DNA from: a virus
Lineage: Duplodnaviria > Heunggongvirae > Uroviricota > Caudoviricetes
Length of the DNA: 11,023 bases
Direction: 5' to 3' (one strand)
Virus record (IMG/VR): IMGVR_UViG_2531839448_000002
Shown here: positions 3,211-9,694 of the stretch, in pieces
Numbering within the stretch: the first letter of the stretch is position 1
Layout of the letters: each line of letters opens with the position of its first letter
Position numbers and translations under genes: made by a program
Notes under the pieces: generated by a model
The model's database searches: none
What the model was told of the DNA's origin: nothing
The model's input: the letters and a program-made list of their open reading frames with translations, nothing else

Positions 3211-3789
3211 ATGGCCATAAAAGGTCTTGAGCAGGCCGTTGAAAACCTCAGCCGTATCAGCAAAACGGCGGTGCCTGGTGCCGCCGCAATGGCCATTAAC
3301 CGCGTTGCGTCATCCGCGATATCGCAGTCGGCGTCACAGGTTGCCCGTGAGACAAAGGTACGCCGGAAACTGGTAAAGGAAAGGGCCAGGCTGAAAAGGG
3401 CCACGGTCAAAAATCCGCAGGCCAGAATCAAAGTTAACCGGGGGGATTTGCCCGTAATAAAGCTGGGTAACGCGCGGGTTGTCCTGTCCCGACGCAGGCG
3501 TCGTAAAAAGGGGCAGCGTTCAGCCCTGAAAGGTGGCGGCAGTGTGCTTGTGGTGGGAAACCGTCGTATTCCCGGCACGTTTATTCAGCAACTGAAAAAC
3601 GGCCGGTGGCATGTTATGCAGCGTGTGGCCGGGAAAAACCGTTACCCCATTGATGTAGTGAAAATCCCGATGGCGGTGCCGCTGACCACGGCGTTTAAAC
3701 AGAATATTGAACGGATACGGCGTGAACGTCTTCCGAAAGAGCTGGGCTATGCGCTGCAGCATCAACTGAGGATGGTAATAAAGCGATGA
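3211..3789 (+). CDS. Z: Tail completion protein Z (gpZ-like)
   Basis: The 192-aa product MAIKGLEQAVENLSRISKTAVPGAAAMAINRV... matches lambda gpZ in sequence, length and position. Its stop overlaps the U start (ATGA). Confidence 0.9.
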   Translation: MAIKGLEQAVENLSRISKTAVPGAAAMAINRVASSAISQSASQVARETKVRRKLVKERARLKRATVKNPQARIKVNRGDLPVIKLGNARVVLSRRRRRKKGQRSALKGGGSVLVVGNRRIPGTFIQQLKNGRWHVMQRVAGKNRYPIDVVKIPMAVPLTTAFKQNIERIRRERLPKELGYALQHQLRMVIKR

Positions 3790-4181
3790 AACATACTGAA
3801 CTCCGTGCAGCCGTACTGGATGCACTGGAGAAGCATGACACCGGGGCGACGTTTTTTGATGGTCGCCCCGCTGTTTTTGATGAGGCGGATTTTCCGGCAG
3901 TTGCCGTTTATCTCACCGGCGCTGAATACACGGGCGAAGAGCTGGACAGCGATACCTGGCAGGCGGAGCTGCATATCGAAGTTTTCCTGCCTGCTCAGGT
4001 GCCGGATTCAGAGCTGGATGCGTGGATGGAGTCCCGGATTTATCCGGTGATGAGCGATATCCCGGCACTGTCAGATTTGATCACCAGTATGGTGGCCAGC
4101 GGCTATGACTACCGGCGCGACGATGATGCGGGCCTGTGGAGTTCAGCCGATCTGACTTATGTCATTACCTATGAAATGTGA
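3786..4181 (+). CDS. U: Tail tube terminator protein U (gpU-like)
   Basis: The 131-aa product MKHTELRAAVLDALEKHDTGATFFDGRPAVFDEADFPAVAVYLTG...LTYVITYEM matches lambda gpU. Stop TGA is at 4179-4181. Confidence 0.92.
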   Translation: MKHTELRAAVLDALEKHDTGATFFDGRPAVFDEADFPAVAVYLTGAEYTGEELDSDTWQAELHIEVFLPAQVPDSELDAWMESRIYPVMSDIPALSDLITSMVASGYDYRRDDDAGLWSSADLTYVITYEM

Positions 4182-4184
4182 GGA

Positions 4185-4193
4185 CGCTATGCC
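4185..4193. repeat. Left copy of the 9-bp IS10 target-site duplication (CGCTATGCC)
   Basis: An identical 9-mer, CGCTATGCC, directly abuts both ends of the IS element (4185-4193 and 5524-5532). It contains the original SD-proximal ATG of V. Confidence 0.85.
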
Positions 4194-4222
4194 CTGATGA
4201 ATCCCCTAATGATTTTTATCAA

Positions 4223-4273
4223 AATCATTAAGTTAAGGTAGATACACATCTTGTCATATGATCAAATGGTTTC
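4223..4273 (+). promoter_or_regulatory. IS10 outside-end regulatory region: putative IHF site and pIN promoter with Dam GATC site
   Basis: AATCATTAAGTTA resembles an IHF consensus at the position expected in IS10 (about bp 30-42). GATC at 4260-4263 falls where the Dam-regulated -10 region of the transposase promoter pIN lies in IS10. Assignments are by position from recalled IS10 organisation, not measured. Confidence 0.4.
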
Positions 4274-4308
4274 GCCAAAAATCAATAATCAGACAACAAA
4301 ATGTGCGA
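4239..4308 (-). ncRNA. Putative IS10 antisense RNA-OUT, complementary to the transposase mRNA 5' end
   Basis: Placed by positional homology only: in IS10, RNA-OUT is transcribed outward from about bp 115 to bp 46 and overlaps the transposase start codon (here ATG 4301). Boundaries are approximate. Confidence 0.4.
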
Positions 4309-5510
4309 ACTCGATATTTTACACGACTCTCTTTACCAATTCTGCCCCGAATTACACTTAAAACGACTCAACAGCTTAACGTTGGCTTGCCACGCCTTAC
4401 TTGACTGTAAAACTCTCACTCTTACCGAACTTGGCCGTAACCTGCCAACCAAAGCGAGAACAAAACATAACATCAAACGAATCGACCGATTGTTAGGTAA
4501 TCGTCACCTCCACAAAGAGCGACTCGCTGTATACCGTTGGCATGCTAGCTTTATCTGTTCGGGCAATACGATGCCCATTGTACTTGTTGACTGGTCTGAT
4601 ATCCGTGAGCAAAAACGGCTTATGGTATTGCGAGCTTCAGTCGCACTACACGGTCGTTCTGTTACTCTTTATGAGAAAGCGTTCCCGCTTTCAGAGCAAT
4701 GTTCAAAGAAAGCTCATGACCAATTTCTAGCCGACCTTGCGAGCATTCTACCGAGTAACACCACACCGCTCATTGTCAGTGATGCTGGCTTTAAAGTGCC
4801 ATGGTATAAATCCGTTGAGAAGCTGGGTTGGTACTGGTTAAGTCGAGTAAGAGGAAAAGTACAATATGCAGACCTAGGAGCGGAAAACTGGAAACCTATC
4901 AGCAACTTACATGATATGTCATCTAGTCACTCAAAGACTTTAGGCTATAAGAGGCTGACTAAAAGCAATCCAATCTCATGCCAAATTCTATTGTATAAAT
5001 CTCGCTCTAAAGGCCGAAAAAATCAGCGCTCGACACGGACTCATTGTCACCACCCGTCACCTAAAATCTACTCAGCGTCGGCAAAGGAGCCATGGATTCT
5101 AGCAACTAACTTACCTGTTGAAATTCGAACACCCAAACAACTTGTTAATATCTATTCGAAGCGAATGCAGATTGAAGAAACCTTACCGAGACTTGAAAAG
5201 TCCTGCCTACGGACTAGGCCTACGCCATAGCCGAACGAGCAGCTCAGAGCGTTTTGATATCATGCTGCTAATCGCCCTGATGCTTCAACTAACATGTTGG
5301 CTTGCGGGCGTTCATGCTCAGAAACAAGGTTGGGACAAGCACTTCCAGGCTAACACAGTCAGAAATCGAAACGTACTCTCAACAGTTCGCTTAGGCATGG
5401 AAGTTTTGCGGCATTCTGGCTACACAATAACAAGGGAAGACTCACTCGTGGCTGCAACCCTGCTTACTCAAAATCTATTCACACATGGTTACGTTTTGGG
5501 GAAATTATGA
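4301..5510 (+). pseudogene. IS10 transposase, frameshifted (disrupted single ORF)
   Basis: The expected continuous ~402-aa ORF is split into 4301-5230 (309 aa, ending ...QIEETLPRLEKSCLRTRPTP) and a +1-phase ORF 5118-5510 (...KPYRDLKSPAYGLGLRHSRTSSSERFDIML...). Both parts read as transposase on either side of about 5181-5190 (ccttaccgag). The element is 1 bp longer than canonical IS10, consistent with a single-base insertion. Confidence 0.8.
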
Positions 5511-5523
5511 GGGGATCTCTCAG

Positions 5524-5532
5524 CGCTATGCC
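5524..5532. repeat. Right copy of the 9-bp IS10 target-site duplication (CGCTATGCC)
   Basis: Identical to 4185-4193. It contains the functional V start codon at 5528. Confidence 0.85.
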
Positions 5533-6268
5533 TGTACCAAATCCTGTAATGCCGGTGAAAGGTGCCGGGACCACCCTGTGGGTTTATAAGGGGAGCGGTG
5601 ACCCTTATGCGAATCCGCTTTCAGACGTTGACTGGTCGCGTCTGGCAAAAGTTAAAGACCTGACGCCCGGCGAACTGACCGCTGAGTCCTATGACGACAG
5701 CTATCTCGATGATGAAGATGCAGACTGGACTGCGACCGGGCAGGGGCAGAAATCTGCCGGAGATACCAGCTTCACGCTGGCGTGGATGCCCGGAGAGCAG
5801 GGGCAGCAGGCGCTGCTGGCGTGGTTTAATGAAGGCGATACCCGTGCCTATAAAATCCGCTTCCCGAACGGCACGGTCGATGTGTTCCGTGGCTGGGTCA
5901 GCAGTATCGGTAAGGCGGTGACGGCGAAGGAAGTGATCACCCGCACGGTGAAAGTCACCAATGTGGGACGTCCGTCGATGGCAGAAGATCGCAGCACGGT
6001 AACAGCGGCAACCGGTATGACCGTGACGCCAGCCAGCGCTTCCGTAGTGAAAGGGAAGAGCACCACGCTGACCGTGGCATTCCAGCCGGAAGGCGCAACC
6101 GACAAGAGCTTCCGTGCGGTGTCAGCGGATAAAACAAAAGCCACCGTGTCGGTCAGTGGTATGACCATCACCGTGAATGGCGTTGCTGCAGGTAAGGTCA
6201 ACATTCCGGTCGTATCCGGTAATGGTGAGTTTGCTGCGGTTGCAGAAATCACCGTCACCGCCAGTTAA
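5528..6268 (+). CDS. V: Major tail tube protein V (gpV-like) with C-terminal Ig-like domain
   Basis: The 246-aa product [36 protein letters not shown]...AEITVTAS matches lambda gpV. The C-terminal ~80 aa ([25 protein letters not shown]...) is the Ig-like (Big_2-type) domain. The ORF-track start at 5507 lies inside IS10 (see findings). Confidence 0.9.
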
Positions 6269-6283: not shown

Positions 6284-6706
6284 ATGTTCCTGAAAACCGA
6301 ATCATTTGAACATAACGGCGTGACCGTCACGCTTTCTGAACTGTCAGCCCTGCAGCGTATTGAGCATCTCGCCCTGATGAAACGGCAGGCAGAACAGGCG
6401 GAGTCAGACAGCAACCGGCAGGTTACTGTGGAAGACGTCATCAGAACCGGTGCTTGTGTGGTGGCGATGTCCCTGTGGCATAACCATCCGAAGAAGACGC
6501 AGATGCCGTCCATGAATGAAGCCGTTAAACAGATTGAGCAGGAAGTGCTTACCACCTGGCCTACAGAGGCAATTTCTCATGCTGAAAACGTGGTGTACCG
6601 GCTGTCCGGTATGTATGAGTTTGTGGTGAATGATGCCCCTGAACAGGCAGAGGACGCTGGGCCTGCAGAGCCTGTTTCTGCGGGAAAGTGTTCGACGGTG
6701 AGCTGA
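6284..6706 (+). CDS. G: Tail assembly chaperone G (gpG-like)
   Basis: The 140-aa product MFLKTESFEHNGVTVTLSELSALQRIEHLALMKRQAEQ... matches lambda gpG. SD GGAGAG lies upstream. Confidence 0.9.
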   Translation: MFLKTESFEHNGVTVTLSELSALQRIEHLALMKRQAEQAESDSNRQVTVEDVIRTGACVVAMSLWHNHPKKTQMPSMNEAVKQIEQEVLTTWPTEAISHAENVVYRLSGMYEFVVNDAPEQAEDAGPAEPVSAGKCSTVS

Positions 6707-7122: not shown

Positions 7123-9694
7123 ACCGGTAGGCGATCTGGTCGTTGATTTAAGTCTGGATGCGGCCAGATTTGACGAGCAGATGGCCAGAGTCAGGCGTCA
7201 TTTTTCCGGTACGGAAACTGATGCGAAAAAAACAGCGGCAGTCGTTGAACAGTCGCTGAGCCGACAGGCGCTGGCTGCACAGAAAGCGGGGATTTCCGTC
7301 GGGCAGTATAAAGCCGCCATGCGTATGCTGCCTGCACAGTTCACCGACGTGGCCACGCAGCTTGCAGGCGGGCAAAGTCCGTGGCTGATCCTGCTGCAAC
7401 AGGGTGGTCAGGTTAAGGACTCCTTCGGCGGGATGATCCCCATGTTCAGGGGGCTTGCCGGTGCGATCACCCTGCCGATGGTGGGGGCCACCTCGCTGGC
7501 GGTGGCGACCGGTGCGCTGGCGTATGCCTGGTATCAGGGCAACTCAACCCTGTCCGATTTCAACAAAAGGCTGGTCCTTTCCGGCAATCAGGCGGGACTG
7601 ACGGCAGATCGTATTCTGGCCCTGTCCAGAGCCGGGCAGGCGGCAGGGCTGACGTTTAACCAGACCAGCGAGTCACTGACGGCGCTGGTGAATGCCGGTG
7701 TGCGTGGTGGTGAGCAGTTTGAGGCGATCAGCCAGAGTGTGGCGCGTTTCTCCTCTGCATCCGGCGTGGAGGTGGACAAGGTCGCTGAAGCCTTCGGGAA
7801 GCTGACCACAGACCCGACGTCGGGACTGACAGCGATGGCACGTCAGTTCCATAACGTGACGGCGGAGCAGATTGCGTATGTTGCTCAGTTGCAGCGTTCC
7901 GGAGATGAAGCCGGGGCATTGCAGGCGGCGAACGAGGCCGCAACGAAAGGGTTTGATGACCAGACCCGCCGCCTGAAAGAGAACATGGGCACGCTGGAGA
8001 CCTGGGCAGACAGGACAGCACGGGCATTCAAATCCATGTGGGATTCGGTGCTGGATATTGGTCGCCCGGACACTGCCCAGGGAATGCTGGAGAAAGCAGA
8101 AAAGGCTTTTGATGAGGCGGACAAAAAATGGCAGTGGTATCAGAGCCGGAGCCACCGGCGCGGTAAAACCTCAGCATTTCTTGCCAATCTCCGGGGAGCA
8201 TGGGAGGACAGAGCGAATGCGCAACTTGGGCTTTCAGCCGCCACGTTGCAGGCCGATCTTGAAAAGGCCAGAGAGATGGCAGCAAAGGACTGGGCCGAGT
8301 CTGAGGCATCACGGCTGAAATATACCGAAGAGGCGCAGAAGGCTTACGAACGCCTGCAGACGCCGCTGGAGAAATATACCGCCCGTCAGGAAGAACTGAA
8401 CAAGGCACTGAAAGACGGGAAAATCCTGCAGGCAGATTACAACACGCTGATGGCGGCGGCGAAAAAGGATTATGAAGCGACGCTGAAAAAGCCGAAACAG
8501 TCCGGCGTGAAAGTGTCTGCGGGCGATCGTCAGGAAGACAGTGCTCATGCTGCCCTGCTGACGCTTCAGGCTGAACTCCGGACGCTGGAGAAGCATGCCG
8601 GAGCAAATGAGAAAATCAGCCAGCAGCGCCGGGATTTGTGGAAGGCGGAGAGTCAGTTCGCGGTACTGGAGGAGGCGGCGCAACGTCGCCAGCTGTCCGC
8701 ACAGGAGAAATCCCTGCTGGCGCATAAAGATGAGACGCTGGAGTACAAACGCCAGCTGGCTGCACTTGGCGACAAGGTTACGTATCAGGAGCGCCTGAAC
8801 GCGCTGGCGCAGCAGGCGGATAAATTCGCACAGCAGCAACGGGCAAAACGGGCCGCCATTGATGCGAAAAGCCGGGGGCTGACTGACCGGCAGGCAGCGC
8901 GGGAAGCCACGGAACAGCGCCTGAAGGAACAGTATGGCGATAATCCGCTGGCGCTGAATAACGTCATGTCAGAGCAGAAAAAGACCTGGGCGGCTGAAGA
9001 CCAGCTTCGCGGGAGCTGGATGGCAGGCCTGACGTCCGGCTGGAGTGAGTGGGAAGAGAGCGCCACGGACAGTATGTCGCAGGTAAAAAGTGCAGCCACG
9101 CAGACCTTTGATGGTATTGCACAGAATATGGCGGCGATGCTGACCGGCAGTGAGCAGAACTGGCGCAGCTTCACCCGTTCCGTGCTGTCCATGATGACAG
9201 AAATTCTGCTTAAGCAGGCAATGGTGGGGATTGTCGGGAGTATCGGCAGCGCCATTGGCGGGGCTGTTGGTGGCGGCGCATCCGCGTCAGGCGGTACAGC
9301 CATTCAGGCCGCTGCGGCGAAATTCCATTTTGCAACCGGAGGATTTACGGGAACCGGCGGCAAATATGAGCCAGCGGGGATTGTTCACCGTGGTGAATTT
9401 GTCTTCACAAAGGAGGCAACCAGCCGGATTGGCGTGGGGAATCTCTACCGGCTGATGCGCGGCTATGCCACCGGTGGTTATGTCGGTACACCGGGCAGTC
9501 TGGCTGACAGCCGATCGCAGGCGTCCGGGACGTTTGAGCAGAATAACCATGTGGTGATTAACAACGACGGCACGAACGGGCAGATAGGTCCGGCTGCTCT
9601 GAAGGCGGTGTATGACATGGCCCGCAAGGGTGCCCGTGATGAAATTCAGACACAGATGCGTGATGGTGGACTGTTCTCCGGAGGTGGACGATGA
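7115..9694 (+). CDS. H: Tail tape measure protein H (gpH-like), 859 aa
   Basis: MAEPVGDLVVDLSLDAARFDEQMARVRRHF... has a long Ala/Gln/Lys-rich predicted helical middle and a Gly-rich C-terminal region (GIVGSIGSAIGGAVGGGASASGGTAIQ...), matching lambda gpH. It overlaps the T stop and the M start (ATGA). Confidence 0.93.
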   Translation: MAEPVGDLVVDLSLDAARFDEQMARVRRHFSGTETDAKKTAAVVEQSLSRQALAAQKAGISVGQYKAAMRMLPAQFTDVATQLAGGQSPWLILLQQGGQVKDSFGGMIPMFRGLAGAITLPMVGATSLAVATGALAYAWYQGNSTLSDFNKRLVLSGNQAGLTADRILALSRAGQAAGLTFNQTSESLTALVNAGVRGGEQFEAISQSVARFSSASGVEVDKVAEAFGKLTTDPTSGLTAMARQFHNVTAEQIAYVAQLQRSGDEAGALQAANEAATKGFDDQTRRLKENMGTLETWADRTARAFKSMWDSVLDIGRPDTAQGMLEKAEKAFDEADKKWQWYQSRSHRRGKTSAFLANLRGAWEDRANAQLGLSAATLQADLEKAREMAAKDWAESEASRLKYTEEAQKAYERLQTPLEKYTARQEELNKALKDGKILQADYNTLMAAAKKDYEATLKKPKQSGVKVSAGDRQEDSAHAALLTLQAELRTLEKHAGANEKISQQRRDLWKAESQFAVLEEAAQRRQLSAQEKSLLAHKDETLEYKRQLAALGDKVTYQERLNALAQQADKFAQQQRAKRAAIDAKSRGLTDRQAAREATEQRLKEQYGDNPLALNNVMSEQKKTWAAEDQLRGSWMAGLTSGWSEWEESATDSMSQVKSAATQTFDGIAQNMAAMLTGSEQNWRSFTRSVLSMMTEILLKQAMVGIVGSIGSAIGGAVGGGASASGGTAIQAAAAKFHFATGGFTGTGGKYEPAGIVHRGEFVFTKEATSRIGVGNLYRLMRGYATGGYVGTPGSLADSRSQASGTFEQNNHVVINNDGTNGQIGPAALKAVYDMARKGARDEIQTQMRDGGLFSGGGR

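What the first reader, a model, noticed from the sequence alone, without database searches (positions are those of the whole stretch)
5501..5532. IS10 inside end offers a substitute in-frame start for V, predicting a 7-residue N-terminal extension on the tail tube protein
The transposase stop codon (TGA 5508-5510) overlaps an ATG at 5507 that is in frame with V, giving MRGSLSA fused to MPVPNP.... This ATG has a G-rich SD-like stretch (GGGGA, 5498-5502) 4 nt upstream. The authentic V ATG at 5528 now has only GAGGGGA (5509-5515) about 12 nt upstream, which is a suboptimal spacing. V may therefore be made at reduced level from 5528, as an N-extended variant from 5507, or both. The gpV N-terminus lies in the tube-forming domain, so an extension could affect polymerisation on the tape measure and initiator complex.
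Basis: inference. Interest (0 to 1): 0.6.

Follow-up and report, generated by a model that had tools for sequence, protein, structure and literature searches.

The report
IS10 insertion upstream of tail-tube gene
A common jumping gene (IS10/ISVsa5) has landed between the tail genes U and V of a lambda-like prophage in E. coli TX1999, separating V from its ribosome-binding site and by chance placing an in-frame ATG 21 bases upstream; this is an ordinary insertion mutation, and sequence alone cannot show what it does to the V protein.

Summary
ATG 5507 overlaps TGA 5508-5510, lies 21 nt upstream of V's ATG 5528 and is in frame with it, giving MRGSLSA+MPVPNP.

The context changes the reading:
- The element (4194-5523, 1330 bp) is an ISVsa5/IS10 copy flanked by a 9-bp target duplication, CGCTATGCC, which itself contains V's ATG.
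- V's native SD and the other ATG copy stay at the left junction. There they open a 2-codon ORF (ATG CCC TGA).
- The transposase carries a +1 frameshift (extra A at 5185). As sequenced, TGA 5508-5510 is therefore not the stop of the full-length transposase frame.
- The ATG/TGA overlap and the GGGG are fixed parts of every IS10 inside end (4,855 places in 1,017 of 5,426 complete E. coli genomes). Being in frame is a 1-in-3 accident.
- The authentic ATG gains a 7-bp anti-SD complement (UGAGGGG) at aligned spacing 11.

A crude thermodynamic model ranks the native V start best in all 9 settings. It cannot separate 5507 from 5528.

Most likely outcome: reduced gpV synthesis from one or both starts, leaving a weakened or defective prophage tail gene. 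Low interest; a new instance of a known kind.

The parts
3786..4181 (+). U gene (tail terminator), intact at 131 aa; stop TGA 4179-4181
   Evidence: PF06141. Reconstructed empty site is 100% identical to other E. coli prophages.
4180..4184 (+). Native Shine-Dalgarno of V (GAGGA), now separated from V by the IS
   Evidence: Sequence. Identical to the lambda U-V junction. GAGG pairs with the anti-SD at -5.6 kcal/mol, aligned spacing 4.
4185..4193 (.). Left copy of the 9-bp target-site duplication CGCTATGCC; contains the original V ATG (4189-4191)
   Evidence: family D18, 100% identity, spacing 1339.
4189..4197 (+). Two-codon ORF ATG CCC TGA, made from V's original ATG plus the first bases of the IS outside end
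   Evidence: translation MP*. Best-scoring start in the region in the crude model.
4194..5523 (+). ISVsa5/IS10R-type insertion sequence, 1330 bp. Outside end on the left, inside end next to V, transposase co-oriented with the late operon.
   Evidence: Differs from the intact 1329-bp copy in NZ_CM128581 by one inserted base. Terminal inverted repeats at 4194-4215 / 5502-5523 (pair I1). RefSeq annotation 'IS4-like element ISVsa5 family transposase'.
4301..5230 (+). Truncated transposase ORF (309 codons) ending at TAG 5228-5230 because of the frameshift
   Evidence: GenBank EGX25089.1; this product is seen on this one contig only.
5185..5185 (+). Extra A, a +1 frameshift after transposase residue T294. 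Could be real or a sequencing error; not resolved.
   Evidence: the only difference from the intact copy.
5193..5510 (+). C-terminal transposase frame, annotated separately as 'iso-IS10R ORF' (105 aa). Carries the ancestral stop TGA 5508-5510.
   Evidence: EGX25090.1.
5498..5501 (+). GGGG, the SD-like run serving ATG 5507 (aligned spacing 4, -4.7 kcal/mol). 5498-5500 are paired with 5467-5469 in the predicted fold.
5507..5527 (+). Seven in-frame codons (MRGSLSA) from the IS10 inside-end ATG to V's ATG
5508..5516 (+). UGAGGGGAU: 7 consecutive pairs (two of them G-U) with the 16S 3' end, aligned spacing 11 to ATG 5528. Overlaps ATG 5507.
   Evidence: -8.2 kcal/mol; spacing penalty 3.2.
5514..5517 (.). 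GATC (Dam) site of the IS10 inside end
   Evidence: Its role in regulating transposition is from established IS10 knowledge and was not tested.
5524..5532 (.). Right copy of the target duplication CGCTATGCC; supplies V's present ATG (5528-5530)
5528..6268 (+). V gene (major tail / tail tube protein), intact at 246 aa
   Evidence: 98% identical to lambda gpV. PDB hits 6P3E, 8IYK and others at E = 2e-156. PF16461 + PF02368.
5549..5551 (+). ATG of V Met8, the start chosen in the GenBank annotation (239 aa). No SD; worst of the V-frame starts in 7 of 9 model settings.
   Evidence: (EGX25091.1).

Best explanation
This is a recent, strain-specific transposition of an ISVsa5/IS10R-type insertion sequence into the U-V junction of a lambda-like prophage of E. 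coli TX1999.

Shown:
- The target was the near-consensus 9-mer CGCTATGCC, which spans V's start codon. After duplication V keeps an ATG at 5528.
- V's native SD now lies 1339 bp upstream, together with V's close spacing to the U stop (7 nt in the intact junction). There the SD serves a 2-codon ORF.
- The IS10 inside end, which is the same in every copy, supplies two makeshift ribosome entry options. One is a 7-bp anti-SD complement (UGAGGGG) at a long aligned spacing of 11 nt from the authentic ATG. The other is an in-frame ATG at 5507 with a weak GGGG four nt upstream.

Inferred:
- On induction, Q-antiterminated late transcription reads through the IS.
- gpV is then made at reduced level, roughly 2- to 15-fold lower initiation in a crude model.
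- It comes from 5528, 5507 or both. The authentic start is at least as likely as the extended one.
- gpV is needed in about 190 copies per tail, so the likely phenotype is a low-yield or tail-defective prophage.

This is an ordinary IS insertion mutation, not a dedicated mechanism.
For: Structure:
- Perfect 9-bp direct repeat flanks a 1330-bp element whose ends are the IS10 outside and inside repeats.
- The element is identical to an intact ISVsa5 copy except for one base.
- Removing the IS plus one repeat copy gives a 600-nt sequence that is 100% identical to at least 15 E. coli prophages and has the lambda U-V junction.
- The target matches 5 of the 6 specified positions of NGCTNAGCN and fits NPuCNNNGPyN, the consensus sequences quoted in PMC4574204.
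- The same 9-mer is the target of another ISVsa5 copy, in torZ of strain 700462.

Recency and uniqueness:
- The junction is absent from 5,426 complete E. coli genomes, 50,697 phage records, GTDB species representatives, JGI metagenomes and IMG/VR.
- V and its flanks show no decay.

Translation model:
- The native V start scores better than 5528 by 0.9-6.2 kcal/mol and better than 5507 by 2.2-8.7 kcal/mol in all 9 parameter settings.
- 5507 beats 5528 in only 2 of 9 settings.

Coupling is the norm in this operon: Z/U and H/M overlap by 4 nt and M/L by 1 nt.
Against: - No expression data exist.
- The thermodynamic model is my own simplification, with spacing-penalty constants recalled from the RBS Calculator. 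It does not rank the other late genes by known abundance: D scores 6.3 and E 2.3, against H at -1.65 and U at -0.5. Differences under about 4 kcal/mol are therefore not reliable.
- Read-through of the IS by Q-modified polymerase is assumed from lambda biology and was not tested for this prophage.
- Only 11 kb of the prophage is available, since the window is the whole contig. The prophage could be defective elsewhere, which would make V expression moot.
- The frameshift at 5185 may be a sequencing error. If so, stop-start coupling from the transposase to ATG 5507 would be possible, though IS10 transposase is translated very poorly (established knowledge; see PMC5006887, listed).
Confidence: 0.62

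Rival explanations
1. ATG 5507 is the main start, so most gpV carries the 7-residue MRGSLSA extension. The extension sits on the N-loop, which forms ring-to-ring contacts, so it disturbs or poisons tail-tube polymerisation.
For: - ATG 5507 is the first start in the frame and has a G-run at near-optimal aligned spacing of 4.
- It scores better than 5528 at two flank settings.
- The gpV N-loop (residues 1-14) is disordered in the monomer, ordered from residue 3 in the tube, and mediates inter-ring electrostatic contacts.
- The extension adds an Arg. It would also keep its Met, whereas native gpV appears to start at Pro2: the PDB 7T4F chain begins PVPNP.
Against: - The GGGG pairing with the anti-SD is weak (-4.7 against -8.2 kcal/mol for the element serving 5528).
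- Three of its Gs are paired in the predicted fold.
- 5507 scores worse than 5528 in 7 of 9 settings.
- A 30S subunit bound to UGAGGGGAU (5508-5516) covers ATG 5507 and points to 5528.
- Coupling to transposase termination is broken by the frameshift.
- No data show that a short N-terminal extension harms gpV. The NMR construct 2K4Q carries 3 extra N-terminal residues, but it was studied only as a monomer.
Confidence: 0.15
2. V is effectively silent. Without its SD and its coupling to U, and behind 1.3 kb of largely untranslated IS RNA, too little gpV is made for any tails. The prophage is simply tail-defective.
For: - Native signals are displaced by 1339 bp.
- Both makeshift starts score worse than the native one in every setting.
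- IS10 copies lie beside or within prophage tail genes in other E. coli genomes too (H84 tape measure, H100 tail fibre). This suggests such hits are not rare. Those loci were not inspected.
Against: - The authentic ATG is preserved, with a 7-bp anti-SD complement within reach. Its total score of 4.4-5.7 is similar to the scores for G (4.6) and L (4.5) in the same model.
- Q-modified polymerase is terminator-resistant (established lambda biology).
- A 97.6%-identical deposited phage genome, PhiR70_1 (host given as E. coli C), carries an IS4 in the late operon between E and FI. An IS in this operon may therefore be compatible with a phage that propagates. The paper was not found, so viability is not confirmed.
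Confidence: 0.2
3. V starts at Met8 (ATG 5549), as in the GenBank annotation (EGX25091.1, 239 aa). That would give a gpV lacking its first 7 residues.
For: The gene call in the public record and in the collection's own annotation uses 5549.
Against: - There is no SD-like sequence upstream.
- It is the worst-scoring of the V-frame starts in 7 of 9 model settings.
- Most listed cluster members in other genomes are 246 aa, and the lambda V annotation is also 246 aa.
- The call looks like a gene-finder artefact caused by the missing SD.
Confidence: 0.03
4. The insertion is an assembly artefact: an IS10 repeat wrongly joined into a prophage contig of a 2011 draft genome.
For: - It is a draft assembly and the contig is only 11 kb.
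- There is an unexplained single-base insertion inside the IS.
Against: - Both junctions fall exactly at the IS termini.
- They are flanked by a perfect 9-bp duplication of a near-consensus IS10 target. Misassembly would not produce this signature.
Confidence: 0.02

Closest known systems
IS10 / Tn10 insertion mutations with effects on neighbouring genes (pOUT at the outside end; pIII and OUTIIp reading out across the inside end)
   Same: - Same element, same 9-bp duplication, same target preference.
- The downstream gene is separated from its expression signals.
- The inside-end region is already known to carry outward-directed promoter activity (Simons et al. 1983 and Martinez-Garcia et al. 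2003, as cited in PMC4574204 and PMC11481808).
   Different: - The known effects are transcriptional.
- Here the insertion falls between an SD and its ATG, so the question is translational: which start, and how strong.
- I found no paper describing the inside-end ATG as a functional start. The two key primary papers are not in the library.
IS10 insertion between the cat promoter and the cat ORF in pSU vectors (PMC4574204)
   Same: IS10 sits between expression signals and an intact ORF, and the ORF is still expressed well enough to be selected.
   Different: That insertion lies 53 bp upstream of the cat ATG, so cat keeps its own RBS. Here the RBS is lost and only the ATG is retained, through the duplication.
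IS4 (InsG) between E and FI in Escherichia phage PhiR70_1 (PV340577)
   Same: An IS co-oriented with the late genes, in an intergenic spot of a 97.6%-identical lambdoid late operon.
   Different: It lies about 30 nt upstream of the FI ATG and leaves the FI SD (GGAGGAG) intact. It is a different IS, with an 11-bp duplication.
Lambda gpV (major tail / tail tube protein) and its N-loop
   Same: 98% identity over the full length. The N-loop residues are identical except T7V.
   Different: Native gpV has no N-terminal extension. PDB chain 7T4F starts at Pro2.
Stop-start overlaps (ATGA-type translational coupling) in the lambda late operon
   Same: The IS10 end carries ATGA, the same overlap type as Z/U (3786-3789) and H/M (9691-9694) in this window.
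   Different: In this IS copy the upstream frame that ends at that TGA is cut off from the transposase start by a frameshift. IS10 transposase is also very poorly translated.

Membership tests
IS10 / ISVsa5 (IS4 family insertion sequence) | About 1329 bp, with the characteristic imperfect terminal inverted repeats (outside CTGATGAATCCCC..., inside CTGAGAGATCCCC...) | tested here: met
   The element at 4194-5523 is 1330 bp. It is identical to a RefSeq-annotated 1329-bp ISVsa5 copy apart from one inserted A. The inverted arms are reported (I1).
IS10 / ISVsa5 (IS4 family insertion sequence) | 9-bp target-site duplication | tested here: met
   CGCTATGCC at 4185-4193 and 5524-5532, 100% identical (D18). 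Removing the IS and one copy restores a sequence found intact in many prophages.
IS10 / ISVsa5 (IS4 family insertion sequence) | Target preference NGCTNAGCN, or the relaxed NPuCNNNGPyN | tested here: met
   5 of 6 specified positions of the strict consensus match, and all 4 of the relaxed one (consensus quoted in PMC4574204). The same 9-mer is used by another copy, in torZ.
IS10 / ISVsa5 (IS4 family insertion sequence) | Intact 402-aa DDE transposase | tested here: not met
   A +1 frameshift at 5185 splits it into 309-codon and 105/130-codon pieces. As sequenced this is a disabled copy. A sequencing error is not excluded.
Lambda gpV-type major tail (tube) protein | Sequence homology over both the tube domain and the C-terminal Ig-like domain | tested here: met
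   242/246 identical to lambda gpV. PDB 6P3E and others at E = 1.9e-156. PF16461 and PF02368.
Lambda gpV-type major tail (tube) protein | Position in the operon: Z-U-V-G-T-H-M-L | tested here: met
   Gene order and Pfam families; ORF table. The only interruption is the IS between U and V.
Functional bacterial translation start at 5507 | Start codon with an anti-SD complement at workable spacing | tested here: met
   ATG, with GGGG at -4.7 kcal/mol and aligned spacing 4. This is weak compared with the other late genes that have a clear SD.
Functional bacterial translation start at 5507 | Ribosome-binding region accessible in the mRNA | tested here: inconclusive
   Opening cost is 12.4 kcal/mol, the second highest among the 19 starts scored (FI is 13.3). 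Three of the four Gs are paired in the MFE fold. The fold is no more stable than shuffles (z = 0.5), and the ranking against 5528 flips with flank size.
Functional bacterial translation start at 5507 | Protein product with the predicted N-terminus | not testable with these tools
   Needs proteomics, toeprinting or reporter fusions. No gene with the 253-aa product is on record in the collection.

The most novel reading that the evidence does not exclude
The IS10/ISVsa5 inside end works as a portable translation-initiation cassette. It combines a 7-bp anti-SD complement with an outward-facing ATG that overlaps the transposase stop. Insertions of this orientation just upstream of a gene would then keep that gene translated, and in one frame of three as an MRGSLS-tagged protein. 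In TX1999 this would give a mixture of native and 7-residue-extended gpV, with the extended form altering or poisoning tail-tube assembly through the N-loop ring-to-ring interface.
Probability: 0.1. Interest if true: 0.35.

Novelty: new member of a known kind. Interest (0 to 1): 0.15.

Why it matters
The direct importance is small. This is one more prophage gene disturbed by a very common IS, in one draft genome.

It is a clean natural example of a target duplication that preserves a gene's start codon while removing its Shine-Dalgarno sequence. It also shows that the constant IS10 inside end carries both an SD-like element and an outward ATG.

If either start proved efficient, it would add a translational component to the known transcriptional ways in which IS10 affects neighbouring genes. 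IS10 inside ends occur at 4,855 places in 1,017 of 5,426 complete E. coli genomes, so this would matter when interpreting such insertions.

For annotation, the GenBank call of V from Met8 (239 aa) is probably wrong, and the IS transposase should be marked as disrupted.

Tried and rejected
- **Junction searches.** I looked for the same junction in complete E. coli genomes, phage records (6), GTDB species representatives (8), JGI metagenomes (10) and IMG/VR (15). There were no matches, so there is no comparative or evolutionary evidence on whether V stays functional behind the IS.
- **Exact-product look-up.** The 253-aa extended product is not on record.
- **Promoter and terminator scan of 4100-5700.** It found 0 promoter-like sites, missing even the known pIN and pOUT, and 1 terminator-like site against 1.3 expected. 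It is uninformative about outward transcription or polarity.
- **RNA fold of 5460-5580.** The z-score is 0.5, so there is no evidence of a selected structure.
- **First RBS model.** It used plain MFE as the unfolding cost, over-penalised distant structure, and used wrong starts for D, E and FI. I replaced it with the footprint-opening version using annotated starts. That version still fails to track known protein abundances, so I use only its most robust result.
- **Primary papers not held.** Martinez-Garcia 2003 on OUTIIp, Campbell 2020 on the lambda tube and Pell 2009 on gpV. I relied on reviews and on citing papers.
- **Source paper for phage PhiR70_1.** It was not found. One search was a badly framed search and gave nothing.
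- **TX1999 genome paper.** It was not found.
- **Structure prediction of the extended gpV.** I considered it and did not run it. A monomer model cannot address polymerisation.

Full report
**1. What the sequence shows**

- ATG 5507-5509 overlaps TGA 5508-5510.
- GGGGA (5498-5502) lies 4 nt upstream of that ATG.
- GAGGGGA (5509-5515) lies 12 nt upstream of ATG 5528.
- The two ATGs are 21 nt apart, and translation from 5507 gives [18 protein letters not shown].
- 5507 is the first possible start codon in that frame after a TAA at 5351.

**2. Source and surroundings**

The window is the entire contig AFEB01000013.1 of Escherichia coli TX1999 (GCA_000225245.2). It carries the late operon of a lambda-like prophage: C/Nu3, D, E, FI, FII, Z, U, then V, G, T, H, M, L, K. 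It is up to 97.9% identical to sequenced lambdoid phages such as Kati and phiSTEC1575-Stx2k. V encodes 246 aa, 242 of them identical to lambda gpV, and the U-V junction DNA is identical to lambda's.

**3. The insertion**

- Bases 4194-5523 (1330 bp) are an ISVsa5/IS10R-type element. The outside end is on the left and the transposase is co-oriented with the late genes.
- ISVsa5 is the database name used for IS10R-type copies (RefSeq annotations).
- The element is flanked by a perfect 9-bp direct repeat, CGCTATGCC, at 4185-4193 and 5524-5532 (D18).
- Deleting the IS and one repeat copy gives a 600-nt sequence that is 100% identical to at least 15 E. coli prophages. The event is therefore a clean and evidently recent transposition.
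- The target matches 5 of the 6 specified positions of the classical NGCTNAGCN consensus and all positions of the relaxed consensus (PMC4574204).
- The very same 9-mer is the target of another ISVsa5 copy, in torZ of strain 700462.
- The U-V junction with the IS was found nowhere else: not in 5,426 complete E. coli genomes, 50,697 phage records, GTDB representatives, JGI metagenomes or IMG/VR.

**4.

(a) The duplication spans V's start codon. The ATG at 5528 is one copy. The other copy (4189) stays on the left with the native SD (GAGGA, 4180-4184) and with the U stop codon (4179-4181) 7 nt away. It now opens ATG CCC TGA, a two-codon ORF closed by the first bases of the IS. V has therefore lost both its SD and its close coupling to U. 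Such coupling is the rule in this operon: Z/U and H/M overlap by 4 nt and M/L by 1 nt.

(b) The IS differs from an intact copy by a single extra A at 5185.
- This shifts the transposase frame after residue 294.
- The ORF from ATG 4301 stops at TAG 5228-5230, and the C-terminal part is annotated separately (EGX25089 and EGX25090).
- TGA 5508-5510 is therefore the ancestral stop but, as sequenced, not the operative one. Stop-start coupling from a full-length transposase to ATG 5507 is not available.
- Whether the extra A is real or a draft-sequence error is unknown. It is not in a homopolymer run, and the 309-aa product is seen on this contig only.

(c) The ATG, the overlapping TGA and the G-run are invariant parts of the IS10 inside end. 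That end is present at 4,855 places in 1,017 of 5,426 complete E. coli genomes. Only the reading frame is specific to this locus, and its prior is 1/3.

**5. Which start, and how strong**

I built a simplified thermodynamic score: anti-SD pairing, plus a spacing penalty, plus a start-codon term, plus the ensemble cost of opening the ribosome footprint. The spacing and start-codon constants are recalled from the RBS Calculator.

| Start | Anti-SD element | Pairing (kcal/mol) | Aligned spacing | Total score |
|---|---|---|---|---|
| Native V (reconstructed empty site) | GAGG | -5.6 | 4 | -1.0 to 3.7 |
| ATG 5528 | UGAGGGG, 7 pairs within 5508-5516 | -8.2 | 11 (penalty 3.2) | 4.4-5.7 |
| ATG 5507 | GGGG | -4.7 | 4 | 3.9-10.7 |
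| ATG 5549 (Met8, the GenBank start) | none | 0 | n/a | 6.5-12.0 |

- 5507 has one of the highest opening costs among the starts scored, and three of its Gs are paired with 5467-5469 in the MFE fold.
- Native V beats both makeshift starts in all 9 settings. 5507 beats 5528 in 2 of 9.
- Caveat: the same score puts H, U and M above D and E, contrary to known abundances. Differences of a few kcal/mol are therefore not trustworthy.
- The honest conclusion is that V initiation is probably reduced and that 5507 and 5528 cannot be ranked. Binding to the stronger SD-like element covers ATG 5507 and favours 5528.

**6. Transcription**

Late transcription in lambdoid phages is Q-antiterminated and resists terminators (established knowledge, not tested here). 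Read-through of the IS is therefore expected on induction.
- The consensus scan found nothing informative.
- IS10 is reported to have weak outward promoters near the inside end (pIII, OUTIIp). In principle these could give some V-G-T-H transcription in the lysogen. This is speculation.
- A deposited phage genome 97.6% identical in this region, PhiR70_1, carries an IS4 between E and FI. This is a precedent for an IS residing in such a late operon, although that insertion leaves the FI SD intact and I could not find the paper.

**7. Consequence for the protein**

- The gpV N-loop (residues 1-14) is disordered in the monomer. It becomes ordered from residue 3 in the tube.
- Together with the beta2-beta3 loop it mediates the electrostatic ring-to-ring contacts (PMC8718954, PMC10721106).
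- A PDB chain of gpV begins at Pro2 (7T4F), consistent with Met removal.
- An MRGSLSA extension would retain its Met and add an Arg at this interface. Interference is plausible but untested.

**8. Verdict**

This is a real, well-defined but ordinary feature: an IS10-family insertion mutation in a prophage tail operon. The proposed N-extended gpV is possible but not favoured over the authentic start, and nothing about the arrangement exceeds chance. Novelty: a new instance of a known kind. Interest is low. The decisive tests are experimental: N-terminal mapping of gpV after induction, reporter fusions and toeprinting.

Noticed in passing
window 5185 (within 4301-5510): A single extra A is the only difference from an intact ISVsa5 copy. 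It frameshifts the transposase after residue 294, so this IS copy is disabled as sequenced. It is not in a homopolymer, and whether it is real or a sequencing error is unresolved.
   Followed up: partly
window 4189-4241: At the left junction V's orphaned SD and ATG give ATG CCC TGA. The TGA overlaps a further ATG (4197) that opens a 14-codon ORF inside the IS outside end, giving a small cascade of stop-start overlaps after U.
   Followed up: partly
L001 (NZ_CM128581.1, torZ) versus window 4185-4193 / 5524-5532: An independent ISVsa5 insertion in torZ of E. coli 700462 uses exactly the same 9-bp target, CGCTATGCC, in the same orientation. It was the only one of 1,249 records whose best inside-end match carried the identical 9-mer.
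   Followed up: partly
window 5549-6268: The GenBank annotation (EGX25091.1) and the collection's gene call start V at Met8 (239 aa) rather than Met1. This is probably a gene-finder artefact of the missing SD.
   Followed up: yes
window 4171-4191: The native U-V junction has its own in-frame ATG 18 nt upstream of V, inside U, which would give MKCEDA-. A 252-aa member of the V cluster from other genomes (P0024) has the length such a start would give; its sequence was not checked.
   Followed up: partly
L005 (PV340577.1, phage PhiR70_1) 2410-3850 and 7214-9774: A deposited lambdoid phage genome (host given as E. coli C) carries an IS4 (InsG) between E and FI, co-oriented with the late genes, with duplication GCCCTTCGGGG. 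Its tape-measure gene H is annotated in two pieces. Viability and the source paper were not verified.
   Followed up: partly
window 6682-6688: GGGAAAG lies near the end of G, where the G and T frames overlap (6688-6706). From memory, this matches the lambda G-T -1 frameshift slippery site.
   Followed up: no
window 4207-4229 and 4265-4287: A 23-nt inverted repeat (78% complementary) lies in the IS outside-end leader, upstream of the transposase ATG at 4301. It may relate to the fold-back inhibition known for read-through transcripts entering IS10 (from memory). Such a late-operon read-through transcript would exist here.
   Followed up: no
one search hits H84 and H100: The feature lists for these IS10 inside-end matches in other complete E. 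coli genomes name a prophage tape-measure protein (H84) and a prophage tail-fibre protein (H100). IS10 hits in or next to prophage tail modules may therefore not be rare. The loci were not inspected.
   Followed up: no
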